In this document: piece by piece, positions 1 through 12,680 of the stretch
How the letters are laid out: the number at the start of each line of letters is the position of its first letter
How positions within the stretch are numbered: the first letter of the stretch is position 1
Source of the DNA: Candidatus Electronema aureum
GTDB lineage: Bacteria > Desulfobacterota > Desulfobulbia > Desulfobulbales > Desulfobulbaceae
Direction: 5' to 3'
Length of the DNA: 15,844 nt
Assembly: GCA_004284765.1 (NCBI GenBank)
Contig: NQJD01000045.1
Location: 1-15,844 of the forward strand
Notes under the pieces: generated by a model
Told to the model about the DNA's origin: nothing
What the model saw: the letters and a program-made list of their open reading frames with translations, nothing else
The model's database searches: none
Made by a program: the position numbers and the translations under genes

Positions 1-101
1 TAACCCAAGTTGTGACCTATAACTCTTGAAAAATCCATGCTTCCCCGCGTATGGTATACTTCTGCTGTCTGGCACGAATATAACCGCACACGGAGGAGAG
101 C

Positions 102-338: not shown

Positions 339-427
339 GTGATACGTTTTTCCTATTGTCAGGTATGGTTTGACCATACCAATGGTATGCTTCAAGCTAT
401 TGCTGGGTATGGTTCAGCTAGTCTGTC
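296..427. repeat. Phased array of GGTATG(C/G)TT motifs with 22-bp register, plus inverted copies
   Basis: GGTATG starts at 296, 318, 362, 384 and 406, giving spacings of 22, 44, 22 and 22 bp. The 340 slot is degenerate (GGTGATAC at 338). Two subtypes occur: GGTATGCTTCAA at 296 and 384, and GGTATGGTT at 318, 362 and 406. Inverted copies are GCATAC at 330-335 and ACCATACC at 373-380. These form the palindrome GGTATGGT-ttg-ACCATACC (362-380) and the inverted repeat GTATGCTTCAA (297-307) / TTGAAGCATAC (325-335). A related GTATGGTATAC lies at 49-59. Confidence 0.6.
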
Positions 428-472
428 GATGCGTTTTGCGTGTTCCGGGAGTGGTTCTGCGGCAAAGACAGC

Positions 473-1111
473 CTATTGAAAGGGTGAAACCCTGTGTTCG
501 CCCGTCTCTATCTGCGGGCTGATATCTTGTCCAGTCGACCAAGCTCTTCCTTCCTCAGAATCAAAGAATTCAAGAAGCATCTTTCCTGCCTCTTGGATAG
601 CTTGCATCCTCTTTTGCAGTTCATCAAGCTCAGGCAGTATTTTCTCTCGCTGTAGATCGAGGTGTTTTTCTACTTCCTTCCAGCTTTCAAGAGACAACGG
701 ATTTAAACGAGGCAGCAAGTGATGAACTAATTCGTTCCGTTCATTCTTTAGAGCCTGCAAGGATTCCTTCTTTCTCTCGAAATATGCAGGATCATCACTC
801 TCCAGCCATGTTTCAACTTTCAGATAGCACTTTTTTAAACGATCATGGGATTCTTCAGCTCCTTCTACATCAGCTTTCGGCTTCATTTCTTCAACGTAAT
901 TGCATATCAACTGCCCTAATGTCCTCTGGTGAATCGCTTTTTTCTGTCGGTCAAATGAAGTTTGGAATTCGCTGCTATACCCCTCGATTTTTGCGCGAGC
1001 TAACAGCCATTTGATAATATGTTCAATCTGTTGGAACAGAATTAAATTCCTTCCAATTTTGCGTTGAACTTCATTCTTGATTGGTTCTAATTCAACAGGA
1101 AATTCCATCAT
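473..1111 (-). CDS. Hypothetical all-helical protein with a HEPN-like RNxxxH motif (possible RNase/toxin-type domain)
   Basis: A 212-aa ORF with no competing long ORF. AGAAGGA lies upstream of the ATGATG start. The sequence is rich in charged residues and predicted helices. It contains ...LKNERNELVHHLLPR..., which fits the R-[N/D/H]-x3-H (Rx4-6H) signature of HEPN nucleases. Local GC is about 42% (hand count), below the backbone. No family could be named by eye. Confidence 0.65.
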   Translation of the reverse strand: MMEFPVELEPIKNEVQRKIGRNLILFQQIEHIIKWLLARAKIEGYSSEFQTSFDRQKKAIHQRTLGQLICNYVEEMKPKADVEGAEESHDRLKKCYLKVETWLESDDPAYFERKKESLQALKNERNELVHHLLPRLNPLSLESWKEVEKHLDLQREKILPELDELQKRMQAIQEAGKMLLEFFDSEEGRAWSTGQDISPQIETGEHRVSPFQ

Positions 1112-1156
1112 CCTTCATATCCTTCTCAAACTGACCTCGAACACTTCCAAAACATC

Positions 1157-1264
1157 TTACGCCGCTTGGCGAGTCAGCTCCAGCGTTTCCCGGTCAATCT
1201 GCTGCAACGCCCGCTGGATGTGGTTGACTTCATTCTCCGCAAAAAGCGGCTCGCCGCATTGCGT
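1157..1264 (-). pseudogene. Start-less 35-codon C-terminal relic of an unidentified gene
   Basis: Minus-strand frame reads TGA|TQCGEPLFAENEVNHIQRALQQIDRETLELTRQAA|TAA. It is bounded upstream by an in-frame stop (1265-1267) and has no plausible start codon. Its composition is GC-rich and backbone-like, and it sits exactly between the adaptor stop codon (1276) and the AT-rich patch. Its identity is unknown. Confidence 0.3.
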
Positions 1265-1275
1265 TCAGACTTAAA

Positions 1276-2658
1276 TCACTTCGGCGGCTGATTAACTGGC
1301 GGAGCAGCTACCGCCTTTTCTCCAAACGGCGCAGCCTTCACATCAGCACCAGGCCGGAGCATCAGCAGGCCCTCGACAATCACCTTGTCGCCAGACGCAA
1401 GCCCCTTCGAGACTAACCACTTGTCGCCCAAGGCCCGCTCAAGGACGAGCAGTCGCATCTCAGCTTTGTTTTCGGCATTAACGAGCAAGGCAAAGGGATT
1501 GCCCTTAGAGTTGCGTGACACACCTTGCTGCGGCACCAGCACAGCCGCTTCTCGCTCGCCCTCTTTGATTGCTGTGCGGACAAACATACCCGGCAGCAGC
1601 ACACCATCAGGATTGGGGAACACCGCCCGCAGCGTAACCGAGCCAGTGCTTGGGTCAACGGTCACATCGCTGAACTGGAGCGTGCCTTCGAGCGGATACG
1701 CGGCACCGTCTTCCAGCATCAGGCTGACTTTGCTCTTGTCCGCCGCCGCTTGACCGCTTTTCCGCAACTGAAGTAGCTTGGCAGTTGACTGAGGCACATC
1801 CGCATAAATGGGATCAAGCTGCTGAATAACGGCCAGCGCAGCAGGCTGATAGGCAGTCACTACCGCGCCCTCGGTCACATTGCTTTTGCCGATGCGACCA
1901 GAGATCGGAGCCGTGACTTTGGTGTAACTCATGTTGATACGGGCGGTTTTCACTGCTGCTTCCGCCTGCTGAATCGTCGCCTGAGCAGCAGCAACCGCGC
2001 TGCGGCTGCTTTCCACCTGCGCCTCAGCTGCGGCTAATGTCGCCTCAGCCACAGCCACCTCAGTAGCGGCCTGATCACGTTGGACAGCAGAATTCACCTT
2101 GCTCTTGAACAGCTCCTCAGCGCGGTTGCTGTTGGTGCGGGCAAGGGTCAGCGTAGCCTGAAGCCGGGCTAAATCAGCAATACCAGCTTTCAGCGCAGCC
2201 TGTGCCCGATCAGCAGCCTTCTGCGCGGCAAGGTGACTGGCTGAGGCGTTGTCGAGCGCAGCTTGGAAGGAAGCAGGATCAATCTGATACAGCATATCAC
2301 CGGCCTTCACGTCTGCGCCTTCAGTAAACAACCGCTTCTGGATGATGCCGCTGACTTGAGGCCGAATCTCTGCCGTGCGGAAGGCAGCAGTGCGGCCCGG
2401 CAGCTCGGTAGTCAGTACCACCTTTTCTGCCTGCACCGTGACAAAGGAGACCTCTGGTATGGGTTTGCCGCCCGGAGGCCCTCCCGGTCCCCCGCTTGGA
2501 CCGCCTGCCTGCTTCGGGCCACCCCCGCTAACCAAAGCGACTAACTTGCCTGTCCAGCCTTGTTGACCGTCGCAGCCTGCACTGGCAAACAGCACAGCCA
2601 ACAGCGCAGTCCAGTGCAGCATTTTATATACAGTGGGTTGATTCATAACAAACTCCAA
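1276..2658 (-). CDS. Efflux RND-type periplasmic adaptor (membrane fusion protein, AcrA/MexA family) lipoprotein
   Basis: Signal peptide with lipobox (LLAVLFASAGC). A Gly/Pro-rich tether follows (GGGPKQAGGPSGGPGGPPGGKP). The biotinyl/lipoyl-like motifs (VKAGDMLYQIDP ... YTKVTAPISGRIG) flank an Ala-rich coiled-coil hairpin, followed by a beta-barrel/MP-proximal region. This is the typical HlyD_D23/MFP layout. It lies directly downstream of a TetR regulator. Confidence 0.9.
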   Translation of the reverse strand: MEFVMNQPTVYKMLHWTALLAVLFASAGCDGQQGWTGKLVALVSGGGPKQAGGPSGGPGGPPGGKPIPEVSFVTVQAEKVVLTTELPGRTAAFRTAEIRPQVSGIIQKRLFTEGADVKAGDMLYQIDPASFQAALDNASASHLAAQKAADRAQAALKAGIADLARLQATLTLARTNSNRAEELFKSKVNSAVQRDQAATEVAVAEATLAAAEAQVESSRSAVAAAQATIQQAEAAVKTARINMSYTKVTAPISGRIGKSNVTEGAVVTAYQPAALAVIQQLDPIYADVPQSTAKLLQLRKSGQAAADKSKVSLMLEDGAAYPLEGTLQFSDVTVDPSTGSVTLRAVFPNPDGVLLPGMFVRTAIKEGEREAAVLVPQQGVSRNSKGNPFALLVNAENKAEMRLLVLERALGDKWLVSKGLASGDKVIVEGLLMLRPGADVKAAPFGEKAVAAPPVNQPPK

Positions 2659-2676
2659 GGCACAAAGGAAGGCCGA

Positions 2677-3291
2677 TCAGTCCATCAGCCCGTGGAAGAA
2701 GACGTTGAGGATGATATCAGGAGATTCAGGATACGGATGCCGTCCTTCCAACCAGTGGAAAAGGAAGGCGTTGCAGAGACTGTCCAAGGCTAAGGCTACG
2801 TGATACGGCTCGGCAGTGCGGCGAAAGAGACCACTGTTCATGCCGTGAATAAAGACCGCTTCCAAGCGGCGCAGCACTAACTCGCAGCGTTCGCGTATCT
2901 CGCTGTCTAACCCGGCCTTGATGTTGAAACTCGCGCCCCGGTTCTCAGCAAAATACAGGCGGACGCAGGCGGCGTTGTCCATGAAGACCTGGCCTTTAGC
3001 TTGGACGTAGTTACGCAGTTGGGCAAGCTCGTCCTCGCCGGTTGACAAGGCGTTCATCAGAGCCTCGTGAAAGCGGTCTGCCTGCTCAGAGATCAGGGCC
3101 TTGTAGAGGTCTTCCTTGTTGCGAAAGAACTTATAGAGCGTGCCGACCGCAAACTCAGCCTTTTCAGCGATCTCCTGCATAGAGACGTTGTGATAGCCTT
3201 TTTCTGAGAACAGGGCAAGGGCCGCAGCCAGCATGTCGTGCCGCTGCCTGATTCTCTCCCTCTCCCGGCGCGGGAGGCTCAGTTCGTCCAT
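2677..3291 (-). CDS. TetR/AcrR-family transcriptional regulator
   Basis: N-terminal TetR helix-turn-helix (AALALFSEKGYHNVSMQEIAEKAEFAVGTLYKFFRNKEDLY) followed by a helical ligand-binding domain of about 140 aa. Its stop lies 18 bp upstream of the adaptor gene. Confidence 0.9.
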   Translation of the reverse strand: MDELSLPRRERERIRQRHDMLAAALALFSEKGYHNVSMQEIAEKAEFAVGTLYKFFRNKEDLYKALISEQADRFHEALMNALSTGEDELAQLRNYVQAKGQVFMDNAACVRLYFAENRGASFNIKAGLDSEIRERCELVLRRLEAVFIHGMNSGLFRRTAEPYHVALALDSLCNAFLFHWLEGRHPYPESPDIILNVFFHGLMD

Positions 3292-3355
3292 GTGTTGATA
3301 AGCAGTCTTGATCTGGTTAGTGATGCTGTCATGCAGAAGATGATACGCGGTTCAT

Positions 3356-3387
3356 ATTTTAAACTGAAGTATCTGCTTGTCAAGCAG
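3356..3387 (-). promoter_or_regulatory. Sigma70-like promoter with overlapping palindromic operator for the tetR-adaptor operon
   Basis: Minus strand reads TTGACA (3383-3378), 16 nt spacer, TAAAAT (3361-3356). The -35 lies inside a perfect 15-bp palindrome CTGCTTG-t-CAAGCAG (3373-3387). A 1-nt centre rules out a hairpin, so a dimeric-regulator (TetR-type) operator is more likely. Confidence 0.45.
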
Positions 3388-3390
3388 GAA

Positions 3391-3423
3391 AATAAAAAAT
3401 CCCCGCACTACACGCCGGGGATT
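3391..3423 (-). terminator. Rho-independent terminator after the HD-GYP regulator gene
   Basis: On the minus strand the stem AATCCCCG (3423-3416) pairs with CGGGGATT (3405-3398) around a 10-nt loop. TTTTTATT follows immediately. It lies 28 nt downstream of the stop at 3451. Confidence 0.7.
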
Positions 3424-3450
3424 ATCATAGTACCTACACAGTTCAGCAGA

Positions 3451-4539
3451 TCAGCACATCGCTTCATCCTTGTTTCGCTGGGCAATAGTTTCAAACTCCT
3501 TCTCTACTCGAATCAGGGCATCATAGACATCTGGGTCAAAATGACGGCTGCGCCCTTCTTCATGAATAATAATCTGCATAGTCTGCTCATGACTGAGAGC
3601 GGGTTTGTAGGCTCTTTTGGTACGCAGAGCATCATAGACATCAGCTATCGCCATGATCCGGCCTGCCAAGGGGATGCTACGTCCTGCTAATCCTCTGGGA
3701 TACCCACTGCCGTCAAACTTTTCGTGATGACTTCCCACCAAATCCTTGGCGCATTGGAGAAAGGTCATCGGCTCGCCCGCCATCTTGGTGAGCTTATCGA
3801 TGACTTCTTCGCCGTAGATGGCGTGCTTCTTCATGATTTCAAACTCATCCCGGTCCAGACGACCTTGTTTGAGCAAAATTACGTCCGGGATACCCACTTT
3901 GCCAATGTCGTGCAGCGGTGCGGTTTTGTACAGCAGAGTGATGTATTCTGGGGTAAGAATGTCGAGAAACTTGCCTGAGTGGAAGAGATTTTCCGCTAAC
4001 GAGCGGACAAAGGCCCGAGTGCGTTGGATGTGGCCACCGGTGTCTGTGTCGCGATGCTCGGCCAGCTCACCCATCGCCACAATAGTGATGTCTTTGAGCA
4101 GCACAGTCTCTCTGGTGCGGGCTTCCACCGTTTGCTCTAAATACATCTTGTAACGGTGCAGCTCCAGATGATTACGGACGCGAGAACGTAGCTCAACTCC
4201 GTGAAAGGGCTTGGTGATATAATCAACTCCACCCAGCTCGAAACCCTTAGCCACATCCTCTGGCTCTGATCGAGCAGTAAGGAAAATCACTGGGATGGAC
4301 TGTGTTGCTTGGATTTTACGAATTTCCTGCAAGGTCTCAAAGCCGTCCATGCCCGGCATCATCACATCTAAAAGCACCAAGTCAGGTGTGCGGCTGCGTA
4401 TCCGCTCTAAAGCCTGCTCGCCAGAGGTGGCATAGGCAAACTCCATGTCCAAGCTCTTCAGATGAGCAAGGGCAATCTGAATATTTTCCGGCACATCGTC
4501 AACAATAAAGACTAACGGCTTGGTTGCGCGACTTCTCAT
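3451..4539 (-). CDS. Response regulator with REC receiver and HD-GYP domain (RpfG-type c-di-GMP phosphodiesterase)
   Basis: REC motifs are present (VFIVDDVPEN ... DLVLLDVMMPGMDGFE ... VIFLTA ... KPF). The C-terminal HD-GYP domain has LHDIGKVGIPD and HHEKFDGSGYPRGL. The start overlaps the kinase stop by 1 nt (TAATG). Confidence 0.9.
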   Translation of the reverse strand: MRSRATKPLVFIVDDVPENIQIALAHLKSLDMEFAYATSGEQALERIRSRTPDLVLLDVMMPGMDGFETLQEIRKIQATQSIPVIFLTARSEPEDVAKGFELGGVDYITKPFHGVELRSRVRNHLELHRYKMYLEQTVEARTRETVLLKDITIVAMGELAEHRDTDTGGHIQRTRAFVRSLAENLFHSGKFLDILTPEYITLLYKTAPLHDIGKVGIPDVILLKQGRLDRDEFEIMKKHAIYGEEVIDKLTKMAGEPMTFLQCAKDLVGSHHEKFDGSGYPRGLAGRSIPLAGRIMAIADVYDALRTKRAYKPALSHEQTMQIIIHEEGRSRHFDPDVYDALIRVEKEFETIAQRNKDEAMC

Positions 4540-6407
4540 TATTTCTCCTCCGCAACACTGCGGAGTGCGGTCAGCACCTGCTCCACCCCCCTGATGTCTA
4601 TATCCAGCGCGAAACGTTTCATATCCTTCCCCATTGCAGTCAGCTCTGTTGTCCCGGTTTTTCGTCCACAGTCCTCCATGCTTCGACCCAAGGCAAAGGC
4701 ATCTTCCAGATTGCCGCTCATCTGGGCTTGAGCGTAGGCGGCTTGCAGCCCGCTGTCCCAGACCGCCCGAATTGGGCTGAGATTAGGCACAAGTAAAGAA
4801 GGTGAATGCCACGGATGTACTGTTTCCACTGCACTGTTTTGGTCGATCTGAATATATCGATCAACGACCCGCTGCAATTCTTGCAGATGAAAGGGCTTGG
4901 CGAGTAGATCATCAAAGAGCGGCGTGAGACTGTCTTTGTCCAACATGAAGCCAGTCATGGCCACAATAGGAATCTGGGCCGTGCGCTGGTCTTCTTTGAG
5001 CTGCTGGGCAAGATCACGACCATCGGCTCCAGCCAGATTCAAATCCATCAAAATCAAATCAGGCTGTTCAGAGAGGGCCAGCGCAAGGCACTCATCCGGG
5101 CCAGCGGCTTCCAACACCTTAATCGGCGAATTAGTAAAATAAATCTTAACCAAATGAGACATCTCCGGCATATCATCAACCACCAGCATGACCGGATTTG
5201 TCCCTTTTTCCCGCGCTGCTAATAGACCGCAGCTCTGCCCTGCAAAGCCGTCTTCTGGTCTGCTTCCTGCCTTGTCCGCAGCTTGCACCGGCATGATGAA
5301 GGTAAAGGCAGTGCCTTGGCCCAAGATGCTTTCTAAGCGGATACTGCCGCCCATCATGCGGGCCAGCCGAGCGCAGAGGGTCAGGCCCAAGCGGGTGCCG
5401 TCATCAATGCTGACCTGCACGTCCTGCTGCTCGAACAGCTCGATCAGCCCCTGTTGCTCGCCTATCGACATACCGATGCCGGTATCCGCCACTTGGAAAG
5501 ACAGCTCCCAGCAGTCAGGCCCGGCCTCAGTCCCGGTCACGGTCAAGCAGACTTTACCCTTTTCGGTGAACTTAACGGCATTGCTAATTAAATTGATCAG
5601 CACTTGGCGGCAATGATCCGCATCCATGACGTACATCTCTGGCAAGCCCGGCTCGACAGCACAGAGGAATTCCAGCTTCTTGGCTCGGAGCTGGTCGGCA
5701 AACATGTCTGCGGCTTGCTCAATCACAGCATGAAGATTGGCAGCAGATTTCAGTACCTTGACATTGCCAGTCTCTAACTTAGACAGCTCCATCACATCAT
5801 TGATAATGGAGACTAAGGCAGTACCGTTCTTGCGGATCGTGCTGACAAAACGCTGCTGCTGCTCATTGAGGCCGGACTCAGCCAGAATTTCCGCATAGCC
5901 GATGATCGCATTCATTGGCGTGCGGATGGCGTGATTAATATTGGCGATGAATTTGCGTTTCAGGCGGTTGGCTGCCATAAGCTGCTGCTCGGTGCGGCGC
6001 AAGGCAGCCTCTTGACAGCCAGTCAATTTTTGGAGATTACGACCAATACAGACAACCAAGCTGCTGCCTTGTCTCTCTATTTGCACCAAAGTGAACTCAA
6101 CAAACAGAGCTTTGCCGTTTTTATCGGTCAGTCGGGCATGGAAGGTGCGGGAGTCGTCCCCGCGCAGTTCGGCAAGTTGCTCTTTAAGACCTGCTAAATA
6201 CGGTTCTAAGATTTCAGCGGGCTGGTTTTCAATCTCATCACTGCTCAGACCGACTGTATCAAGAAAAGTGCGGTTGGCTGCTCTGATTATGCCGCTACGG
6301 TCGAGAAGAAGCGCACAGGTGGAGAGTGCTGCAAAAATGTTCAGCACTGCGTCCCAGTCATGAAAGCTCTGTTCAGTTACACCGCTACGTTGGCTGTCTT
6401 CGCTCAT
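4539..6407 (-). CDS. Cytoplasmic hybrid sensor histidine kinase (PAS - HisKA - HATPase_c - REC - C-terminal helical tail)
   Basis: No obvious TM segment. There is an N-terminal PAS-like region. H-box: FIANINHAIRTPMNAIIGYAEIL. N-box: LINLISNAVKFT. G-boxes: VADTGIGM and GTRLGLTLC. Receiver: VMLVVDDMPE ... LILMDLNLAGADG ... IVAMTG ... KPF. Its ATG overlaps the aroK-like stop (ATGA). Confidence 0.9.
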   Translation of the reverse strand: MSEDSQRSGVTEQSFHDWDAVLNIFAALSTCALLLDRSGIIRAANRTFLDTVGLSSDEIENQPAEILEPYLAGLKEQLAELRGDDSRTFHARLTDKNGKALFVEFTLVQIERQGSSLVVCIGRNLQKLTGCQEAALRRTEQQLMAANRLKRKFIANINHAIRTPMNAIIGYAEILAESGLNEQQQRFVSTIRKNGTALVSIINDVMELSKLETGNVKVLKSAANLHAVIEQAADMFADQLRAKKLEFLCAVEPGLPEMYVMDADHCRQVLINLISNAVKFTEKGKVCLTVTGTEAGPDCWELSFQVADTGIGMSIGEQQGLIELFEQQDVQVSIDDGTRLGLTLCARLARMMGGSIRLESILGQGTAFTFIMPVQAADKAGSRPEDGFAGQSCGLLAAREKGTNPVMLVVDDMPEMSHLVKIYFTNSPIKVLEAAGPDECLALALSEQPDLILMDLNLAGADGRDLAQQLKEDQRTAQIPIVAMTGFMLDKDSLTPLFDDLLAKPFHLQELQRVVDRYIQIDQNSAVETVHPWHSPSLLVPNLSPIRAVWDSGLQAAYAQAQMSGNLEDAFALGRSMEDCGRKTGTTELTAMGKDMKRFALDIDIRGVEQVLTALRSVAEEK

Positions 6408-6916
6408 GAACGCAGCCGGGCAACAATTTCAGCGGCAATATCCGCGTTGGTTCTGCCTCGCACGGAAATTTCCAAGTCCGCAGCTTGGCGGTACTGCGGT
6501 AGCCGCTCGACAAACAAAGCCTCAGCTCGTGCTATATCCTGAAACAAAGGACGCTTTTTCATCTTTTGCTCGGCGTTGGGATGACTGCGTATGGCCTCCA
6601 GAATGCTATCTAAATCGGAATGGAGATAGATCACCTGCCCCAGCCGCTGGAGATTGTTAACCTTGAAGAAACCGCCGCCCGCTGAGACAATAGTGTGGCT
6701 CACCTGTCCCTCTAACCAGGTAGCGCACTGCTGCTCTAACTGCCGGAAATGGGCTTCGCCTTGTTCAGCAAAAATATCCCGAATTCTCATTTTGACCATG
6801 CTTTCAATCAGGTCATCGGTATCAATCGCGAAGCGGCCTGTCAGCGCGGCCAAAGCGCGGGCTGTCCTGCCTTTACCCACACCCATAAAGCCGATCAGTA
6901 TGATGTTGTCAGCCAT
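6404..6916 (-). CDS. aroK: Shikimate kinase-like protein (AroK family) with atypical P-loop
   Basis: By eye it aligns along its whole length with E. coli AroK. Shared motifs are NIILIGFMGVGKGRTARALA (P-loop region), IDTDDLIE (shikimate-binding DxD), SAGGG and KKRPLF. The P-loop reads GVGKGR instead of GxGKST. Confidence 0.8.
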   Translation of the reverse strand: MADNIILIGFMGVGKGRTARALAALTGRFAIDTDDLIESMVKMRIRDIFAEQGEAHFRQLEQQCATWLEGQVSHTIVSAGGGFFKVNNLQRLGQVIYLHSDLDSILEAIRSHPNAEQKMKKRPLFQDIARAEALFVERLPQYRQAADLEISVRGRTNADIAAEIVARLRS

Positions 6917-7172
6917 GATTTTCTATGTTCCCGCCCGACTGCCCGTCCGAGCCTAAATAATAATTATTGAACGTGGATTCTTCAAATTGTAAAACCTAAA
7001 AGGCAACCTGTAAAATGAATTTTCAGCAATGGCACTTGCGCTCCTTGTCTGTCTTTCGCGTAGTGAACTGATTTTCTCGGAAAAACTGCGTACTTTCACT
7101 GATCTGCCCCGACGTAATCATTCGAGAGCAATAGAGATGATCTTCGACAAAAACTTGAACCAAGCGTCAAGA

Positions 7173-9641
7173 CTATTTAACGCTTTTGCACTTCAGTGTT
7201 TCCCCATCGGTCACACAGCTCACCGTACCCTGTTCTCTGGTGATCTGCACTGGTATCTTTTTTTCCTGCCAGAGCGCACGATTTGCCGGAGCAGGAAAAT
7301 ATTGCTGCCTGCTGCCTCTTCCAGCGGAAACCACGATCAGCTTTGGCTGCACCGCCGCAAGAAAGTCTGGGCCAGTTGATGTGCGGCTGCCGTGATGTCC
7401 TGCTAACAGCACGTCAGCCTTCAGCTCTGCACCTTGACGCAGCAGGATGTCCTCGCTTTGCTTGCCGATATCACCGGGCAGGAGAAAGGCACGCCTGCCA
7501 TGCTGATACCGCAGCACTAAGGCGGCATCGTTGACCTCTTCAGAACGCACAGGCAGACCAGTCATGCCTACAACCGTCAGTGCGAAATCTTTGCCTTGTG
7601 CCAACCTGCGTCCGCGTTCAGGAATCAGCACCTGCATCCCCTGCTGCGCCGCCTGATCCAGTATCTGCTGATACTTGCCTTCTCGATGCGCATCGCCGTT
7701 AATCCACAGTAGTCTTGGTCTGAAATGGGCCAAGATGAAATCCATGCCACTGAAATGATCGTTGTGCGGATGGCTGATCACTGCCTGATCGAGCCGCCAG
7801 ATGCGCTGGCTCCACAAGTAGGGGGCGATAACTTGCTCACCGATGTTGAGGCCGCTTTCCTTACTGCCGCTGCCGCCATCAACCAGAATGCGTGAACCGT
7901 CAGGGAGCTGGAGGAAGACTGATGAACCTTGGCCGACATCAAGGACGGCTACCTTACTTGTTCCCGATTGCGCCGGAAACCATATCCCCCAGGTGAAATG
8001 TAGGGTCAGCAGCGCGGCACCAGCTAAGGCCATCTTGCGGAACTTGAGGCTCCAGAGAAGAAGAAGCAGGCCATAGAAAAGTATTTCCGCAACGGTTGGA
8101 CTGATCGTCCAGATTGAAACCCAAGGCAGCGCACTGGCAATTGCAGTACCGTGTAGACCTGCCCAGATACCAACACTGCCGATTTTGAGCAACAGCACAG
8201 CGACCTGCGGTTTCACAAAGATGTAGGGAATAGCCGCTAATCCCCAGGGCAAAGCCCAGAAGCAGAGCAGCGGCTCAAGCAGTAGGTTCGTCAGGGGGCC
8301 GACTATGGAAAAGCGGTGGAAATGGAGCAGCACCAGTGGCAGCGTACCTACGGTCGCGGCGATGGAAGCCAGCAGTGCCGAGCGGAGATAAACAACTCTT
8401 TTGCTGCCATCAGTAGTTGTGGGCGGCATGATCTGCGGCAGGAAGAGAACTAGAGCTGCCACCGCACTGAACGAGAGCTGAAACGAGGCAGTGAACAAGG
8501 CGAGCGGATGTAAGATCAGCACCAGCAGAGCCGCTGCCGCGAGCAGATGCAGCATATCGTGCCGGCGGCGGAGAATCACTGCGCCCAGCAAGGCAGCAGC
8601 CATGATTAGCGAGCGCAGCACCGGCGTGTTCATCCCGGCAATCAGGCTATAGAGAAGCAAGAGAGGCAGGGTGCCGAGCAAGGCCAGCGTCGGTATGTGC
8701 GTGTGCAAAAGCAGCCAGTGCGACCGCCGGAGCAGCTTATTGAGCAGCGCACTAACCATCAGGGCGAGCAGGCTGATGTGCAGACCAGAGATAGAGAGAA
8801 TATGCGTCGTGCCAGTGGCCTTGAACTGTTCCTGAATCTGCGGAGATATCGCTGCTTGGCTGCCGATCAGCAGGGCCTGATAGACACCAGCGACCTCTGG
8901 GCTGAGGTGCTGACGGATAAACAAGCCTGCCTCCTGCCGCACCTGTTCGGGAAGAGAGCGGAGCCTGTGCAGTCCGCTCTTAGTCTGATCGTTGAGGACA
9001 AGCATATCCTCTCGCCCACCCACCCAGCCGCTCACGTAGATACCTTTTGCCGCTAAATGACCCTGATAGTCAAAGCTGCCCGGCGTGTTGAAGCTGCCTG
9101 CTGGCCTTGCCTTGGCTAAGATCATCAGCGACATGCCGGGTCGCAGCCCATCTGCCCTACCCTGCATGGTCAGCCGCACCCTGCCGCGTACACTCTGCCA
9201 CCTGTGCCGCAGTAGCACCTCCTCTACTTCCAGCTCAAAACGGGAGATGATTTCCTCACCCTGCTCGGTCTGCACTGCGCTTTTTTCAATCATACTGGCC
9301 AAGGTGCCGACCAGCGTTACCTGCGTCTGCTCGTGAATCAGCGCAGCGAGCTGTCCGCCTGTTTTTGGCAACGCAAGCTGCTGGAGAAGATGCAGGTATC
9401 CAGCCAGAAAGAAAAGCGGCAAGCTGAGGAATAAGGCAAGCTGCTGGCGGCGGCGCGAGAAGATCAGGGTGGCGAGGAAGAGCAGGGCAAAGGCAATGCC
9501 TGCTGCGTATTCAGGTAAGGGATGTAAACGAGCGGTGCTGATACCGATGATGAAGCAGACCGTTACTGGCAGGAGGATGTTACGGTTGCACCAGCGGAGG
9601 GCGGCTGCCGGAAAGGGCATTTTTTGTTGGTGTTTATCCAA
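7173..9641 (-). CDS. comEC: DNA internalization-related competence protein ComEC/Rec2 (three-domain form)
   Basis: An 822-aa protein. The N-terminal TM plus OB-like region (DUF4131-type) is followed by a polytopic Competence domain with many hydrophobic helices. The C-terminus is a metallo-beta-lactamase fold with VISHPHNDHFSG (HxHxDH) and downstream GHHGS. Confidence 0.9.
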   Translation of the reverse strand: MDKHQQKMPFPAAALRWCNRNILLPVTVCFIIGISTARLHPLPEYAAGIAFALLFLATLIFSRRRQQLALFLSLPLFFLAGYLHLLQQLALPKTGGQLAALIHEQTQVTLVGTLASMIEKSAVQTEQGEEIISRFELEVEEVLLRHRWQSVRGRVRLTMQGRADGLRPGMSLMILAKARPAGSFNTPGSFDYQGHLAAKGIYVSGWVGGREDMLVLNDQTKSGLHRLRSLPEQVRQEAGLFIRQHLSPEVAGVYQALLIGSQAAISPQIQEQFKATGTTHILSISGLHISLLALMVSALLNKLLRRSHWLLLHTHIPTLALLGTLPLLLLYSLIAGMNTPVLRSLIMAAALLGAVILRRRHDMLHLLAAAALLVLILHPLALFTASFQLSFSAVAALVLFLPQIMPPTTTDGSKRVVYLRSALLASIAATVGTLPLVLLHFHRFSIVGPLTNLLLEPLLCFWALPWGLAAIPYIFVKPQVAVLLLKIGSVGIWAGLHGTAIASALPWVSIWTISPTVAEILFYGLLLLLWSLKFRKMALAGAALLTLHFTWGIWFPAQSGTSKVAVLDVGQGSSVFLQLPDGSRILVDGGSGSKESGLNIGEQVIAPYLWSQRIWRLDQAVISHPHNDHFSGMDFILAHFRPRLLWINGDAHREGKYQQILDQAAQQGMQVLIPERGRRLAQGKDFALTVVGMTGLPVRSEEVNDAALVLRYQHGRRAFLLPGDIGKQSEDILLRQGAELKADVLLAGHHGSRTSTGPDFLAAVQPKLIVVSAGRGSRQQYFPAPANRALWQEKKIPVQITREQGTVSCVTDGETLKCKSVK

Positions 9642-9712
9642 GCGAACCTGTTTAGATAGTAACTCTGCCTTTCCCGCCGAGCGTAATTTTTGTTAGCCTG
9701 CGCAGCCTATCT

Positions 9713-9740
9713 TTGTTATGATAAACTATCATACTATATT
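9713..9740 (+). promoter_or_regulatory. Sigma70-like promoter with embedded 17-bp palindrome upstream of the two-gene cassette
   Basis: TTGTTA (9713-9718), 16 nt spacer, TATATT (9735-9740). The spacer and -35 edge carry the perfect palindrome TATGATA-aac-TATCATA (9717-9733). This is the position expected for an autoregulatory operator in type II TA operons. The ATG at 9762 lies 22 nt downstream of the -10. Confidence 0.4.
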
Positions 9741-9761
9741 GTCGTGAGACCAAGTAAGAAT

Positions 9762-10535
9762 ATGAATACCAATCGAGTGATTGATTTAATTAGATATATC
9801 TTGGAAGAGGCCCGCCAGAATGAAGAATGGTCTTTCCGAGAACTTGGGCCTATACACCTCATTAAGTATGTGTACCTTGCTGATCTCTATTATGCTTCAC
9901 AAAACGATGGAAAGACATTCACAGACCTTTCTTGGCAATTTTATCATTTCGGCCCGTGGAATCCTTCCTTGTACAGTGAACTCCCTAATTTTATTAGGGA
10001 GATAGGTGCAAACATCAGAACATTTGAAAGTCGCTATACAAAAGATGGAGTGCGATATTCCTTAAATGATGACTATCACCACGATTCGCCTTGCAGCATA
10101 CCTCTTGCCATCAGTTCATTGCTGCGCCGCGATATAAGGAATTATGGTTCTGCAACTAACGATTTGCTGCATTATGTATATACTACTCCGCCTATGACAA
10201 ATGCTGTGCCAGGAGACTATCTTAATTTTGATCAGATTATTTTTATGCACAAGGAATCTGTTGCTACAGAAAATTTTGACAATTTAACTGACAGAGAGAA
10301 AAAGAAGAGAAAGCAACGCGTGTTGGATATTAGAAAAAAAATCGCAAAACAACGTGAAGAAAGTAAAAAAAAGCGGGTACGTCCAGCACCAAGATATGAT
10401 GAAGTATTTTTTAATGGAACCATGGAGATGAATCGAGATATTGAACTTCAAGAAATTGAAAACCATAAAGGTTTGTTGCAGGTTAACCAAAACACTTGGA
10501 TAGGAAACTGGAGAAGGAGTCATGAGTTACCCTGA
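9762..10535 (+). CDS. Panacea/DUF4065 (SocA-like) domain protein, putative antitoxin component, with Lys/Arg-rich C-terminal extension
   Basis: The ORF track opens at a TTG (9690), but the in-frame ATG at 9762 follows the predicted promoter. The N-terminal ~110 aa (VIDLIRYILEEA...FRELGPIHLIKYVYLADLYYASQNDGKTFTDLSWQFYHFGPWNPSLYSELPNFI) match, from memory, the DUF4065/Panacea pattern (L.K..L.KLLYLAD......G.P.T...Y.A...GPV...LY..L). The C-terminal half is highly basic (REKKKRKQRVLDIRKKIAKQREESKKKRVRP). GC is about 32-40%. Confidence 0.65.
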   Translation: MNTNRVIDLIRYILEEARQNEEWSFRELGPIHLIKYVYLADLYYASQNDGKTFTDLSWQFYHFGPWNPSLYSELPNFIREIGANIRTFESRYTKDGVRYSLNDDYHHDSPCSIPLAISSLLRRDIRNYGSATNDLLHYVYTTPPMTNAVPGDYLNFDQIIFMHKESVATENFDNLTDREKKKRKQRVLDIRKKIAKQREESKKKRVRPAPRYDEVFFNGTMEMNRDIELQEIENHKGLLQVNQNTWIGNWRRSHELP

Positions 10536-11241
10536 CGGCTCCTTGCAAAAATATTTTGATGATCATAGTTGGTGGGAGAAAACAACAGAAAAAAATCCAT
10601 TGATAGGGCGGTTGATATGGGCATTTATACCTCATGTTGATGTTATCCCTAAGTCTTTAATTTCAACTGGTCGCGCTGAAGACGAAGCATCTAATCATAG
10701 TAAAGCCAGTTACGAAATTGCAGACCTTCGTATAAAAAGTCATTTTCAAAAAAATACTCTTCCGGCGGCTATATTGCCTTACTATCCAGATGAATGCTAC
10801 ACTGTTCATCGGTCAAAAAAAAGACCGGCATTAATTATAGCGGATGGTGGTGTTGAAGTACCAAAACAGTTGCGATCAAGCATGAAACCAAGCTGGCAGA
10901 CAAATCCAACCATGCTTGCTGCGCCATATTATGGCGTGTTAAAAAACGGAACCAGCAAATGGTATGAACCCTTCGTCGATCGGATCAAAAAATGTGAATA
11001 TCCTCAATACCTATGGGATACTTTACCCGTATCATCATCTGAGACTAAATCTTCTATTTTAAGATTTGATCACATACAGCCAATAGGAAAACATGCCGAT
11101 TCTTACGAACTTACTGATTACACTCTGAAAGAAGCGGTGGTAGATTTTTTTCTCAAAGAGTGGCTCTGCTGGCTGACTACCGGCGAAATGGATGTAGACA
11201 GCATTCTTTATGATATACGAAGAGACTTCCTCAGTCTTTGA
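10522..11241 (+). CDS. Hypothetical protein, putative toxin partner; by-eye resemblance to a MazF/PemK (CcdB/MazF-fold) core with large insertions
   Basis: Strong SD (AAGGAG at 10514-10519) 2-3 nt... more precisely ending 2 nt before the ATG at 10522, which overlaps the upstream gene by 14 nt. Four segments line up in order with E. coli MazF (recalled sequence). GRLIWAFIPHV matches GDLIWVDFDPT. SKKRPALIIADG matches AGHRPAVVLSPF. MLAAPYYG matches LCVPCTTQ. SILRFDHIQPIG matches GVALADQVKSIA. An insert of about 50 aa follows the first strand, and a helical tail of about 40 aa ends the protein. The functional call is low confidence; the coding call is good. Confidence 0.6.
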   Translation: MSYPDGSLQKYFDDHSWWEKTTEKNPLIGRLIWAFIPHVDVIPKSLISTGRAEDEASNHSKASYEIADLRIKSHFQKNTLPAAILPYYPDECYTVHRSKKRPALIIADGGVEVPKQLRSSMKPSWQTNPTMLAAPYYGVLKNGTSKWYEPFVDRIKKCEYPQYLWDTLPVSSSETKSSILRFDHIQPIGKHADSYELTDYTLKEAVVDFFLKEWLCWLTTGEMDVDSILYDIRRDFLSL

Positions 11242-11245
11242 CACT

Positions 11246-12550
11246 TTATTTTTTCTTTCCCATCAATTCCCTCACCACCTGCACATGCCGCGCCACGCTG
11301 CCGCGCTGCTGCTCGACCAGTGTCTGCGCTGCTTGGGACATGGCCGCATGAAGCGCAGTATCAGCCAAGATACGAGAGGCAATCTCGGCAAGATTCTCTG
11401 CGGTGACGATGTGCGCTCCGCCGCAACGAAGTAAATCGCTGGCAATTTCAGCGAAATCATCCATGTGCGGACCAAAGAGGACAGGTACGCCCTGCACCGC
11501 TGCTTCGATGGGATTGTGGCCACCTTCAGCAACCATGCTACCGCCGATGAAGGCAAGCCGGGCCAAGCGATAGCAGGAGGCTAATTCGCCGATAGTATCT
11601 AAGATCAGCACGTTGCTGTTAGTTGCCGTGCCGCTGCTGCGGAGATCAGCAGTAAGGCCAAACTGATGAGCCAGCTTGACTAATTCGCTGCCTCGCTCGA
11701 TCTTGCGTGGGGCGATGATCAATTGCAGGGGTAGGTTATCAGGGCAGACACGCAGGTATGCCCCTACCTTTTTGAACGCAGCAAAGATCAGTTCCTCCTC
11801 GCCGGGATGGGTAGAGCCACAGACCCAGACATGACCCGTGTCGTCGTAGGGGCGATCCTTGCGGTCGCCCGATACACTGCCAAGGCGAATACAAGATTCG
11901 CCCCTCCCTACTTCGTATTTCAGATTGCCCAAGCAGATGACCCGCTCTGCCGGGTTGCCCAGTTCAATCATCAGGCGGCGGTCGTGCTCGGTCTGCATGG
12001 AAAGCAGGTCGAAGCAGCGGAACATTGGCTGGAAAAAGAAGGCAAAGCGGCGGTAGGCGGCAAATGATTTTGCCGAAATGCGCCCATTGACCAGCATAAC
12101 CGGAACCTGCCGCTTATGGAGCTGCTGCAACCAGTTCGGCCAGAAGTCGGTCTCAACCAAGATGAAGAGATTCGGCTGGATTGCGTCAAGGTATCGACGA
12201 ACAGCGCAAGTAATGTCCAGCGGACTGTAGAGAACGAGATCGGCGTGGGGTTTGATCAGTTTTTCTGCCAGCACTCTGCCGCTGCGGGTGGCCGCCGTGA
12301 AGACTATTCGCGCTGGGCAAATGTTCTCGCGGATTGCTTTGACCAAAGGCAGGGCTGAGGTGACTTCCCCGACAGACAGAGCGTGCAGCCAGATGACTGG
12401 CCCCGACTTGGCAGTAAATAAGATATCCCTGATATGTTGGGTCTGTAGGCCCAGCCGTTCTAAGGTGCGGCCTCGGTATTTGGTACGGAAGAGGACAAGG
12501 GGCAGCAGCGGTAGGAGGGCGGCGACGAGCAGATTGTAGAGGAAGATCAT
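11246..12550 (-). CDS. waaA: 3-deoxy-D-manno-octulosonic acid (Kdo) transferase
   Basis: Hallmark WaaA/KdtA motifs are VIWLHALSVGEV, LVETDFWPNW, LVNGRISAKSF and IGGSMVAEGGHNPIEAA, preceded by an N-terminal TM anchor. The start is set at M19 of the track ORF (12550, MIFLYNLLVAALLPLLPL...). The 12604 ATG would abut the tRNA and would translate through its terminator hairpin. Confidence 0.9.
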   Translation of the reverse strand: MIFLYNLLVAALLPLLPLVLFRTKYRGRTLERLGLQTQHIRDILFTAKSGPVIWLHALSVGEVTSALPLVKAIRENICPARIVFTAATRSGRVLAEKLIKPHADLVLYSPLDITCAVRRYLDAIQPNLFILVETDFWPNWLQQLHKRQVPVMLVNGRISAKSFAAYRRFAFFFQPMFRCFDLLSMQTEHDRRLMIELGNPAERVICLGNLKYEVGRGESCIRLGSVSGDRKDRPYDDTGHVWVCGSTHPGEEELIFAAFKKVGAYLRVCPDNLPLQLIIAPRKIERGSELVKLAHQFGLTADLRSSGTATNSNVLILDTIGELASCYRLARLAFIGGSMVAEGGHNPIEAAVQGVPVLFGPHMDDFAEIASDLLRCGGAHIVTAENLAEIASRILADTALHAAMSQAAQTLVEQQRGSVARHVQVVRELMGKKK

Positions 12551-12560
12551 CTCAACCAAC

Positions 12561-12597
12561 AAAAAACGGTTACGCTTGCTTGAAGCGTAACCGTTTC
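12561..12597 (-). terminator. Rho-independent terminator downstream of tRNA-Thr
   Basis: Perfect 14-bp stem AAACGGTTACGCTT (12564-12577) / AAGCGTAACCGTTT (12583-12596) with a 5-nt loop. On the minus strand it runs into TTTTTT (complement of 12561-12566). It begins 8 nt after the tRNA 3' end. Confidence 0.7.
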
Positions 12598-12604
12598 GTA
12601 TCAC

Positions 12605-12680
<76 letters not shown>

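What the first reader, a model, noticed from the sequence alone, without database searches (positions are those of the whole stretch)
9642..11245. AT-rich opposite-strand two-gene cassette between comEC and waaA: candidate undescribed Panacea-type toxin-antitoxin / defence module
Seen in sequence: hand counts of 60-nt lines give about 32-40% GC inside the cassette and about 52% or more in the flanks. The cassette is the only plus-strand coding DNA in a run of minus-strand housekeeping genes. It ends 4 bp from the waaA stop. The two ORFs overlap by 14 nt, and the second has a consensus AAGGAG. A TTGTTA-16-TATATT promoter carries a perfect 17-bp palindrome. Established knowledge: DUF4065/Panacea domains (SocA-like) act as hyperpromiscuous antitoxin domains paired with many unrelated toxin domains, usually as compact bicistrons. 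Inference: gene 1 is a PanA-type antitoxin and gene 2 is its cognate toxin. The pair looks horizontally acquired. Gene 2 matches no family I can name with confidence, so this pairing may be undescribed.
Basis: partly seen in the sequence, partly recalled or inferred. Interest (0 to 1): 0.8.

Follow-up and report, generated by a model that had tools for sequence, protein, structure and literature searches.

The report
Horizontally acquired Panacea-type toxin-antitoxin cassette
A 1.65-kb AT-rich two-gene insert between comEC and waaA of the cable bacterium Candidatus Electronema aureum looks like a mobile toxin-antitoxin pair: a Panacea-domain antitoxin coupled to an unannotated partner that probably has a much-enlarged MazF-like RNase fold. 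It is a new member of a known kind, not a new kind of system.

Summary
Two overlapping plus-strand genes (9762-10535 and 10522-11241) sit in a stretch of 39% GC between minus-strand comEC and waaA (56-57% GC).

A close relative (about 90% nt identity in both flanks) has waaA directly next to comEC. So window 9605-11258 is an insertion.

Gene 1 belongs to a divergent Panacea (PF13274) subfamily. The window protein scores just under Pfam's cut-off, but 30 of 42 relatives match.

Gene 2 matches nothing in Pfam, NCBIfam, PADLOC or PHROGs. It nevertheless defines a family of about 580 clusters at 50% identity across several phyla. A gene 1 homologue lies immediately upstream and overlapping in all 83 loci where this could be tested. 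No third gene is conserved.

A confident AlphaFold model of gene 2 has MazF as its top four PDB fold matches. A nearly invariant K-x-R-P motif aligns with MazF's catalytic Arg-Pro. This evidence is concordant but below significance.

Panacea antitoxins paired with MazF-like toxins have already been validated (Kurata 2022). I therefore read this as a new, unusually large member of a known kind.

Toxicity, neutralisation and any anti-phage role are untested. The proposed operator palindrome is only a 7+3+7 inverted repeat, and it is not conserved in the closest cassette-bearing relative.

The parts
9605..11258 (.). Inserted AT-rich segment. It replaces about 200 bp of GC-rich waaA-comEC spacer and remodels the first codons of comEC and the last codons of waaA.
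   Evidence: blastn of the window against the empty-site relative L089 gives 90.6% identity over 7201-9604 and 90.1% over 11259-12515, with nothing in between. GC is 0.39 in the segment and 0.53 in the rest of the window.
9713..9740 (+). Sigma-70-like promoter candidate, TTGTTA-16-TATATT.
   Evidence: 9 of 12 consensus positions; not more frequent than chance in this region. The -35 half is conserved in Electronema sp. VV; the -10 half is not.
9717..9733 (+). Inverted repeat TATGATA-AAC-TATCATA inside the promoter spacer. A possible operator, but weakly supported.
   Evidence: 7-nt arms, 100% complementary, 3-nt gap. The right arm is not conserved in L001.
9762..10535 (+). Gene 1: PanA-like putative antitoxin, 257 aa.
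   Evidence: PF13274 at E=9e-5. 30 of 42 family members hit PF13274. More than 512 homologues. Always immediately upstream of gene 2.
9762..10241 (+). Gene 1 N-terminal globular domain (residues 1-160), which contains the Panacea match (residues 33-93).
   Evidence: AlphaFold pLDDT is mostly 85-97 over residues 1-160. The Pfam match covers residues 33-93. Fold search finds only weak winged-helix-like matches.
10290..10370 (+). Gene 1 Lys/Arg-rich long helix (residues 177-203).
   Evidence: helix H177-203. A3 alignment consensus KKKxK.
10383..10532 (+). Gene 1 conserved acidic/aromatic C-terminal tail (PPRYDEVFFxG ... W246 ... R251). Proposed toxin-neutralising element.
   Evidence: Conserved columns P210, Y212, D213, G219, W246 and R251. 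pLDDT is low to medium (55-75), as for a segment that folds on binding. The neutralising function is inferred by analogy with the Phd-C and PAD1 extensions of other PanAs (PMC10440598).
10510..10519 (+). GGAGAAGGAG ribosome-binding region for gene 2, lying inside the 3' end of gene 1.
   Evidence: Gene 1 and gene 2 overlap by 8-23 nt in 78 of 80 loci, which fits translational coupling.
10522..11241 (+). Gene 2: putative toxin, 239 aa, member of an unannotated family with a probable enlarged MazF-like core.
   Evidence: No Pfam, NCBIfam, PADLOC or PHROGs hit. 583 clusters at 50% identity. AF2 model pLDDT 87. The top 4 Foldseek PDB hits are MazF. hhalign P=2.6e-4.
10639..10806 (+). Gene 2 insertion relative to MazF (residues 40-95): a beta-hairpin subdomain with conserved R51, H59, P81, A83 and E91.
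   Evidence: Secondary structure. Conservation. The hhalign register appears only when this segment is skipped.
10816..10827 (+). K99-K-R101-P102 motif, aligned with the catalytic Arg-Pro of MazF (E. coli H28-R29-P30).
   Evidence: R101 is 99%, K99 96% and P102 96% conserved in 148 sequences. Aligned to MazF HRP by hhalign. The catalytic role of MazF R29 comes from my own knowledge of the MazF literature.
7173..9641 (-). comEC (context; left flank).
   Evidence: Pfam Competence, DUF4131 and Lactamase_B.
11246..12466 (-). waaA, Kdo transferase (context; right flank).
   Evidence: Pfam Glycos_transf_N at 9e-58.

Best explanation
The cassette is a horizontally acquired, self-contained type II toxin-antitoxin module of the Panacea (PanAT) kind.

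Proposed working:
- Gene 1 and gene 2 are transcribed together from a promoter in the 120-bp leader and are translationally coupled through their conserved overlap.
- Gene 2 is the toxin. I infer a dimer-forming, much-enlarged MazF/PemK-fold endoribonuclease. Its nearly invariant Arg101 (K-x-R-P) would act like MazF Arg29 to cleave RNA and halt translation.
- Gene 1 is the antitoxin. Its N-terminal Panacea domain acts as a scaffold or sensor. Its family-specific C-terminal extension (a Lys/Arg-rich helix plus an acidic, aromatic PPRYDEVFF...W...R tail) wraps or occludes the toxin's substrate groove, much as the MazE tail does on MazF or the Phd-C extension of another PanA does on Doc.
- When the antitoxin is lost or triggered (proteolysis, or a phage or stress cue sensed by Panacea), the toxin is freed and growth stops.

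Shown here: the insertion, the Panacea membership of the gene 1 family, the strict pairing and overlap, and the patchy multi-phylum distribution in variable, often mobile or defence-rich neighbourhoods.

Inferred: toxicity, the MazF-like RNase chemistry, neutralisation by the C-terminal tail, and the trigger.

My probabilities: PanAT-type toxin-antitoxin or defence pair, about 0.8; MazF/CcdB-like fold for gene 2, about 0.65; RNase activity, about 0.5.
For: Insertion:
- L089 (90.6% and 90.1% nt identity in comEC and waaA) has waaA directly followed by comEC, with a 200-bp GC-rich spacer.
- About 45 more Desulfobulbales-like loci show waaA-comEC adjacency without the cassette.
- Cassette GC is 0.39 against 0.56-0.57 in the flanking genes.

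Mobility:
- The same pair lies at other sites in Electrothrix Rat3.
- In Desulfurivibrio alkaliphilus it sits next to a transposase and a BREX system.
- Between E. aureum and Electronema sp. VV the cassette is 83-89% nt identical, while the flanks are 71-72%.
- The cassette is AT-richer than its flanks in 65 of 79 loci.

Panacea:
- PF13274 at E=9e-5 for the window protein.
- 30 of 42 family members hit it.
- Public naming as a Panacea-domain protein.

Pairing:
- A gene 1 homologue is immediately upstream in 83 of 83 testable loci from at least 6 phyla.
- Two of three loci found by searching with gene 1 carry a full-length gene 2, and the third carries a truncated one.
- The overlap of 8-23 nt is conserved.
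- No third gene is conserved.

MazF-like fold:
- AF2 model with pLDDT 87 and pTM 0.83.
- The top four Foldseek PDB hits are all MazF, from M. tuberculosis and E. coli, with probability 0.84-0.97 and TM-score normalised to the target of about 0.5. Everything below them is noise.
- hhalign gives P=2.6e-4 and aligns KRPALII with HRPAVVL, LAAPYYG with LCVPCTT, and SILRFDHIQPIG with GVALADQVKSIA.
- R101 is 99% conserved.

Precedent:
- PanA paired with MazF-like PanT toxins (Pseudomonas moraviensis, Bifidobacterium ruminantium) are toxic, are neutralised and inhibit translation (PMC8832971).
- Accessory extensions of PanAs do the neutralising (PMC10440598).
Against: - There is no experimental evidence of toxicity or neutralisation.
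- The window's gene 1 scores below Pfam's gathering cut-off (23.8 against 25.7 bits).
- PF02452 (PemK) does not hit any of 33 gene 2 family members, even at E<=10.
- Profile searches against PDB sequences find no MazF.
- Foldseek E-values are only 0.04-0.12.
- hhalign scores depend on parameters: P=0.012 in some runs. A reversed-sequence control reaches P=0.005.
- The best hhalign result (P=7e-6) required post hoc removal of the insertions.
- MazF's catalytic Thr has no clear equivalent; Tyr137 or Gly138 sits in its place.
- The protein is twice the size of MazF.
- PADLOC has no model for either protein.
- The putative operator is not conserved.
Confidence: 0.55

Rival explanations
1. It is a PanAT-type toxin-antitoxin pair, but the toxin is not a MazF-like RNase. 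Either the barrel resemblance is only fold-level (for example CcdB-like gyrase poisoning or another target), or the fold match is spurious and gene 2 is an enzyme of a new kind that uses its conserved His/Arg/Glu set (H59, R51, E91, R181).
For: - No PemK HMM hit in any family member.
- Foldseek E-values are sub-threshold and the TM-score normalised to the query is only 0.25-0.28.
- The hhalign controls are not clean.
- About half of the protein lies outside the MazF-like core: the N-terminal Q9/W17/W18 motif, the insertion at residues 40-95 and the helix at 149-156. These parts carry many of the most conserved residues.
Against: - All four top structural hits are MazF proteins from two distant species.
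- The Arg-Pro motif, which CcdB lacks, is 96-99% conserved and aligns in register.
- The order of secondary-structure elements follows the MazF topology.
Confidence: 0.25
2. The pair is mainly an anti-phage abortive-infection system. The Panacea domain senses a phage cue and releases the effector. This does not exclude the best explanation; it concerns biological role.
For: - The neighbours include BREX in D. alkaliphilus.
- One locus has a XamI-type restriction enzyme and another toxin-antitoxin pair nearby.
- Type I, II and III restriction-modification genes, GmrSD, BrxL, integrases, resolvases and transposases occur among 141 immediate neighbours.
- Ernits 2023 proposes a sensor role for Panacea (PMC10440598).
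Against: - Neither protein hits PADLOC.
- Most neighbours are ordinary housekeeping genes: 116 different Pfam families, none in more than 3 loci.
- The Electronema insertion site itself is between housekeeping genes.
- No phage data exist.
Confidence: 0.25
3. It is a non-toxic accessory two-gene operon, for example a regulator or adaptor plus an enzyme with a conditional benefit. It would be mobile but not a toxin-antitoxin system.
For: - Toxicity is untested.
- In Kurata 2022 some predicted PanT proteins were not toxic in E. coli (PMC8832971).
- Both genes can be found disrupted: gene 1 is split in L017 and L061, and gene 2 is split or truncated in L049, L054 and L173.
Against: - The strict two-gene coupling with overlapping reading frames, small size, patchy distribution, AT-rich composition and Panacea domain all match the toxin-antitoxin pattern.
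- The cassette is better conserved than its flanks between two Electronema species.
Confidence: 0.1
4. It is a conserved housekeeping operon of the clade that merely happens to be AT-rich.
For: It is present at the same site in two Electronema species.
Against: - The site is empty in a closer relative (90% nt identity) and in about 45 other waaA-comEC junctions.
- The pair sits in different genomic locations elsewhere.
- It is found in only 128 of 185,579 species genomes.
Confidence: 0.01

Closest known systems
PanAT systems with MazF/PemK-like PanT toxins (Pseudomonas moraviensis and Bifidobacterium ruminantium PanAT; clusters T5/T6 of Kurata et al. 2022, PMC8832971)
   Same: - Antitoxin-first bicistron with overlapping or abutting genes.
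- A Panacea-domain antitoxin with no N-terminal HTH.
- A toxin annotated 'hypothetical' whose MazF relationship shows only by remote-homology or fold methods.
- Patchy, mobile distribution.
   Different: - Those toxins reach HHpred probabilities of about 99% to MazF/EndoA. Here the best values are hhalign 42% and Foldseek 0.97, with poor E-values.
- Gene 2 is about 239 aa and carries a conserved N-terminal WW motif and a 55-residue insertion.
- PanT of P. moraviensis begins MPGNIL (from its cloning primer), so it is not an evident close relative. I could not align full sequences.
- Gene 1 carries a conserved C-terminal extension of about 90 residues that is not among the described accessory domains PAD1, Phd-C and ZBD.
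- The accessions of the D. alkaliphilus pair were not found in the held (truncated) supplements.
MazEF / PemIK (Kis-Kid) / NdoAI-NdoA type II toxin-antitoxin systems
   Same: - Proposed toxin core fold (SH3-like barrel plus C-terminal helix).
- Conserved Arg-Pro after strand 2 and a D-x-Q-like strand motif.
- Antitoxin-first operon.
- Proposed neutralisation by an acidic, aromatic antitoxin tail.
   Different: - No PF02452 match.
- Twice the size of MazF.
- The antitoxin is a Panacea protein rather than an AbrB/SpoVT-type MazE or a RHH antitoxin.
- There is no clear equivalent of the catalytic Thr.
SocAB of Caulobacter (the founding Panacea/DUF4065 antitoxin)
   Same: The antitoxin carries a SocA-like Panacea domain.
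   Different: - SocA is a ClpXP adaptor that promotes degradation of SocB, which inhibits the DNA polymerase sliding clamp.
- Nothing here resembles SocB.
- Direct binding is the commoner PanA mechanism (PMC8832971).
Multidomain PanAs with dedicated neutralising extensions (Corynebacterium doosanense PanA with Phd-C; Bacillus subtilis PAD1-PanA; Ernits et al. 2023, PMC10440598)
   Same: A Panacea core plus an extra element that co-varies with one particular toxin family. This fits 'linear neutralisation', with Panacea acting as a sensor or scaffold.
   Different: The extension here (a Lys/Arg-rich helix plus a PPRYDEVFF...W...R tail) has no Pfam match. Its role is only inferred.

Membership tests
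Panacea / SocA-like antitoxin domain (Pfam PF13274, formerly DUF4065) | The protein matches the PF13274 HMM at or above the gathering score. | tested here: inconclusive
   The window protein scores 23.8 bits against a cut-off of 25.7, at E=9e-5. Only model positions 1-61 of 113 are matched.
Panacea / SocA-like antitoxin domain (Pfam PF13274, formerly DUF4065) | The homologous family as a whole is recognised as Panacea. | tested here: met
   - 30 of 42 aligned homologues hit PF13274 at E<=0.01, the best at 2.2e-6.
- Several homologues carry a precomputed PF13274 hit.
- UniRef and an NCBI record name the D. alkaliphilus and E. aureum proteins as 'Antitoxin SocA-like Panacea domain-containing'.
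PanAT two-gene system (operational criteria of Kurata 2022) | [quoted passage not shown] | tested here: met
   - The pair is adjacent and overlapping in 83 of 83 testable loci from many phyla.
- No third gene is conserved.
PanAT two-gene system (operational criteria of Kurata 2022) | The toxin inhibits growth, and the cognate PanA neutralises it and forms a complex with it. | not testable with these tools
   This needs expression assays and pull-downs.
PemK/MazF toxin family (Pfam PF02452) | Sequence match to the PemK_toxin HMM. | tested here: not met
   - 0 of 33 family members hit PF02452, even at E<=10.
- Control MazF, Kid and NdoA sequences hit it at 1e-24 to 5e-38.
- Profile searches of PDB sequences find no MazF.
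MazF/CcdB-like fold (SH3-like barrel toxins) | Three-dimensional fold similarity to solved MazF structures. | tested here: inconclusive
   - The top 4 of 350,542 PDB chains are MazF (5hjz_A, 5cqy_B, 5co7_B, 6kyt_G), with probability 0.84-0.97 and target-normalised TM-score 0.48-0.51. Their E-values are only 0.04-0.12.
MazF/CcdB-like fold (SH3-like barrel toxins) | Conserved catalytic Arg in the Arg-Pro motif after strand 2 (E. coli MazF R29). | tested here: met
   R101-P102 are 99% and 96% conserved and align with MazF R29-P30 in hhalign. The alignment itself is only marginally significant, and the role of R29 comes from my own knowledge.
Known anti-phage defence systems (PADLOC-DB v2) | Match to a PADLOC protein model. 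| tested here: not met
   No hit for either protein at E<=1.

The most novel reading that the evidence does not exclude
Gene 2 founds a toxin family that has not been described. It comprises about 580 clusters at 50% identity in Desulfobacterota, Acidobacteriota, Binatota, Gammaproteobacteria, Nitrospirota and others. On this reading it is a double-size derivative of the MazF barrel with its own conserved insertion subdomain and N-terminal WW motif. It is neutralised by a previously unnamed C-terminal Panacea-associated domain, and it is absent from the 88 PanT clusters and the NetFlax network, because the cognate PanA subfamily scores below Pfam's threshold and lives mostly in uncultured lineages. 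Its substrate or specificity could differ from that of canonical MazF, and it may work as a phage-triggered abortive-infection module.
Probability: 0.35. Interest if true: 0.5.

Novelty: new member of a known kind. Interest (0 to 1): 0.35.

Why it matters
The cassette adds a widespread, wholly unannotated protein family to the Panacea toxin-antitoxin repertoire. It also gives that family a testable functional hypothesis: a MazF-like RNase with Arg101 as the catalytic residue.

Panacea antitoxins just under Pfam's threshold, from uncultured sediment lineages, probably escaped the published surveys.

The cassette offers a clean natural example of insertion and exchange at one chromosomal site in cable bacteria. 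The empty and occupied alleles are 90% identical in their flanks. This could serve as a strain marker and as a test case for the role of toxin-antitoxin or defence modules in multicellular filaments.

None of this would surprise a toxin-antitoxin specialist.

Tried and rejected
- Direct family searches of gene 2 found nothing: Pfam, NCBIfam, PADLOC and PHROGs; Pfam on all 33 family members; phmmer and profile searches of PDB sequences.
- Foldseek against viral structures (BFVD) gave only noise.
- Gene 1's model gave only weak winged-helix/PadR-like and DarG hits in the PDB, with no solved Panacea relative recognised.
- I spent the last large protein search on MazF to deepen the comparison profile. 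It returned almost only Bacillaceae NdoA sequences and did not improve hhalign (P=0.012).
- A reversed-sequence control shows that hhalign P-values near 5e-3 arise by chance here. I therefore treat the profile-profile evidence as supportive only. Excising the insertions raised the match to P=7e-6, but that step was guided by the hypothesis.
- I looked for target-site duplications or terminal inverted repeats at the insertion borders and found none convincing.
- I looked for a conserved third gene and found none.
- I searched the supplements of Kurata 2022 and Ernits 2023 for the D. alkaliphilus accessions WP_013164354/5 and for related taxa. Nothing turned up, but both files are truncated in the library, so absence is not proven.
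- tblastn of gene 2 against GenBank phages and PLSDB plasmids gave no match.
- I rejected the housekeeping reading because of the empty site.
- I rejected the 'perfect palindrome operator' as evidence of autoregulation because it is not conserved in the nearest orthologous cassette.
Full report
**Source and observation.**
- The window is a 15,844-bp contig of the freshwater cable bacterium Candidatus Electronema aureum. Gene 1 is 100% identical to TAA73987.1, from a contig of exactly this length.
- Two plus-strand ORFs, 9762-10535 (257 aa) and 10522-11241 (239 aa), overlap by 14 nt.
- They lie between minus-strand comEC (7173-9641; Competence, DUF4131, Lactamase_B) and minus-strand waaA (11246-12466; Kdo transferase). 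The gene 2 stop is 4 bp from the waaA stop.
- Every other gene from 473 to 12604 is on the minus strand.
- GC is 0.34-0.41 inside the cassette and 0.55-0.60 beside it. This is the lowest-GC stretch of the contig.
- The promoter-like TTGTTA-16-TATATT (9713-9740) exists but is no better than chance: 6 such sites against 4.6 expected.
- The 'perfect 17-bp palindrome' is really TATGATA-AAC-TATCATA, with 7-nt arms.
- AAGGAG sits only 2 nt from the gene 2 ATG. A GGAG 8 nt upstream is better placed.

**The cassette is an insertion.**
- I scanned metagenome contigs with a WaaA alignment and screened the 80 loci found for ComEC, gene 1 and gene 2.
- L089 is 90.6% identical to the window across comEC and 90.1% across waaA at the nucleotide level. 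Yet its waaA is followed directly by comEC, across about 200 bp of GC-rich (0.57), repeat-rich spacer.
- Homology to the window stops at 9604 and resumes at 11259. The segment 9605-11258 is therefore inserted DNA that also rebuilt the first codons of comEC and the last codons of waaA.
- About 45 more distant loci also have waaA and comEC adjacent or overlapping. None of the 80 loci carries the cassette.
- Electronema sp. VV carries the cassette at the same site, again at 0.40 GC against 0.61-0.62 in its flanks.
- Between that genome and the window the cassette is 83% (gene 1) and 89% (gene 2) nt identical, while comEC and waaA are only 72% and 71%.
- So the cassette is younger than the host split, or has been exchanged by recombination through the flanks. 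The closer relative L089 either lost it or never received it.
- I found no target-site duplication or terminal repeats.

**Gene 1.**
- Pfam's SocA_Panacea model (PF13274) matches residues 33-93 at E=9e-5 and 23.8 bits, just under the 25.7-bit cut-off.
- The protein has more than 512 homologues. In an alignment of 42 of them (A3), 30 match PF13274 individually.
- A second public annotation of the E. aureum genome, and UniRef for the Desulfurivibrio homologue, already call it a SocA-like Panacea domain protein.
- The AlphaFold model (pLDDT 80) has a confident N-terminal globular domain (residues 1-160). A disordered linker follows, then a long Lys/Arg-rich helix (177-203), then a less confident but sequence-conserved tail: PPRYDEVFFxG, W246, R251.
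- The extension has no Pfam match. Fold search found only weak winged-helix-like hits.

**Gene 2.**
- It matches nothing in Pfam, NCBIfam, PADLOC or PHROGs, either singly or for 33 family members. Public records call it hypothetical.
- The word-indexed search found 37 relatives. The exhaustive profile search found 583 clusters at 50% identity, 197 of them below 1e-30, nearly all 230-250 aa.
- An AlphaFold model built on the family alignment is confident (pLDDT 87, pTM 0.83).
- Its top four Foldseek matches among 350,542 PDB chains are all MazF: M. tuberculosis MazF-mt1 with RNA, the MazEF-mt1 complex, and two E. coli MazF entries. Probabilities are 0.84-0.97 and the target-normalised TM-score is about 0.5, but E-values are only 0.04-0.12. 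Below them the list is noise.
- By eye, the family motifs follow the MazF strand order:

| Gene 2 family motif | MazF/Kid counterpart |
|---|---|
| GRLIWAFxPHV | GDLIWVDFDP |
| RAKKRPALxL | xGHRPAVVL |
| LVAPYYG | LCVPCTT |
| SILRLDHIQPIG | GVALADQVKSIA |
| C-terminal helix | C-terminal helix |

- hhalign against a three-sequence MazF/Kid/NdoA alignment (each sequence verified as PF02452) reproduces this register at P=5.9e-4 to 2.6e-4, probability 29-42%.
- These numbers are fragile. Other settings give P=0.012, and a reversed-sequence control reaches P=0.005.
- Removing the family-specific insertions gives P=7e-6 over MazF residues 7-82, but that step was guided by the hypothesis.
- The most conserved residues in 148 sequences include K99, R101 and P102, the counterpart of MazF's catalytic Arg-Pro. 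They also include Q9, W17, W18, R51, H59, P81, A83, P135, S178 and R181.
- I conclude that a MazF-like core with a 55-residue insertion and an N-terminal addition is the best-supported fold, at about 0.65. RNase activity is a reasonable but unproven inference.

**The two genes form one module.**
- Scanning one genome per species found relatives of gene 2 in 128 genomes. The hosts are Desulfobacterota, Acidobacteriota (Thermoanaerobaculia), Binatia, several Gammaproteobacteria, Nitrospirota, a Bacteroidales bin and a Polyangiaceae bin.
- In 83 of the 85 loci then held, a gene 1 homologue lies immediately upstream on the same strand. The other two loci end at the contig edge.
- The reading frames overlap by 8-23 nt in 78 of 80 loci.
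- Three loci reached from the gene 1 side all have gene 2 downstream, one of them truncated.
- No third gene is conserved.
- The 141 immediate neighbours fall into 116 Pfam families. Housekeeping genes are mixed with DNA methylases, restriction subunits, GmrSD, BrxL, Fic, PIN, integrases, resolvases and transposases.
- In D. alkaliphilus the pair sits between a transposase and a BREX system. Another locus has a XamI-type restriction enzyme and a further toxin-antitoxin pair nearby.
- The cassette is AT-richer than its flanks in 65 of 79 loci, with a median difference of -0.047. Its GC still tracks host GC (r=0.81), as expected of a mobile element undergoing amelioration.
- It is absent from GenBank phages and PLSDB plasmids and is present in only 4 of 2.9 million IMG/VR contigs.

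**Comparison with what is known.**
- Kurata et al. 2022 (PMC8832971) showed that Panacea antitoxins pair with 88 clusters of putative toxins, mostly 'hypothetical'.
- Two of these, from P. moraviensis and B. ruminantium, are MazF/PemK-like by HHpred only. Both are toxic, are neutralised by their PanA and block translation.
- Ernits et al. 2023 (PMC10440598) showed that when a PanA carries an extra domain (PAD1, Phd-C, ZBD), that domain does the neutralising. [quoted passage not shown]
- The present module fits this pattern: antitoxin first, overlapping genes, a hypothetical toxin with a remote MazF-like core, and a family-specific PanA extension.
- It differs in several ways. The toxin is twice the size of MazF. 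Its sequence is far more remote from PF02452. The C-terminal extension is unnamed.
- I could not show whether this family is one of the published clusters. The D. alkaliphilus accessions are not in the held parts of the supplements, but those files are truncated.

**Mechanism and verdict.**
- The most likely reading is a type II Panacea toxin-antitoxin module. The toxin would be a MazF-like endoribonuclease, held inactive by the antitoxin's C-terminal tail and released when the antitoxin is degraded or triggered.
- A defence role is possible but not supported beyond the neighbourhood anecdotes. PADLOC has no model for either protein.
- I rate it a new member of a known kind, with moderate interest (0.35).

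Noticed in passing
window 12605-12680 (-): A tRNA-Thr(CGT) gene lies directly upstream of waaA. The longest 'waaA' ORF (start at 12604) abuts it, so the true waaA start is probably near 12466. The tRNA is 1.3 kb from the insertion and does not appear to be the integration target.
   Followed up: partly
window 1-1250, ORF 473-1111 (-): A second low-GC stretch (0.43-0.46) at the contig edge holds a 212-aa ORF with no Pfam or PADLOC match. It may be another accessory gene.
   Followed up: partly
L089 reverse complement, 4456-4656 (the empty waaA-comEC spacer): The ancestral spacer is GC-rich (0.57) and packed with short inverted repeats (for example GATCTGGCAGGCC...GGCCTGCCAGATC). These could be terminator or REP-like structures, and might make the spot a recombination-prone target.
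   Followed up: no
L001 7184-8720 compared with window 9762-11241: Between two Electronema species the cassette is much more similar (83-89% nt) than the flanking comEC and waaA (71-72% nt), and a closer relative lacks it. This implies either exchange of the cassette through flank recombination or loss in one lineage.
   Followed up: partly
L173 3680-4096; L049, L054, L017, L061: Decayed copies exist. L173 keeps an intact gene 1 but only the C-terminal 100 residues of gene 2. In L049 and L054 gene 2 is split. In L017 and L061 gene 1 is split. Some of these may be assembly errors.
   Followed up: partly
window 9716-9726 and 11208-11218: The left arm of the promoter inverted repeat, TTATGATA(A/T)AC, recurs near the 3' end of gene 2 (10 of 11 bases match). 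This is possibly chance, possibly a second binding half-site.
   Followed up: no
window 9694-9709: A second near-palindrome, TAGCCTGCGCAGCCTA (core CTGCGCAG), lies just upstream of the -35 hexamer. It is partly conserved in Electronema sp. VV.
   Followed up: no
L085 8716-14789 (Desulfurivibrio alkaliphilus AHT2): Directly downstream of the homologous pair is a BREX-like cluster: HTH_17, BrxB, BrxC/PglY and an AlbA_2/HATPase protein. A Mutator-family transposase lies upstream.
   Followed up: partly
L169-L172 (IMG/VR contigs): Four putative viral or proviral contigs carry the pair. L170 is the same contig as the Desulfobulbus MAG locus L053, so some of these may be misclassified chromosomal DNA.
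   Followed up: no
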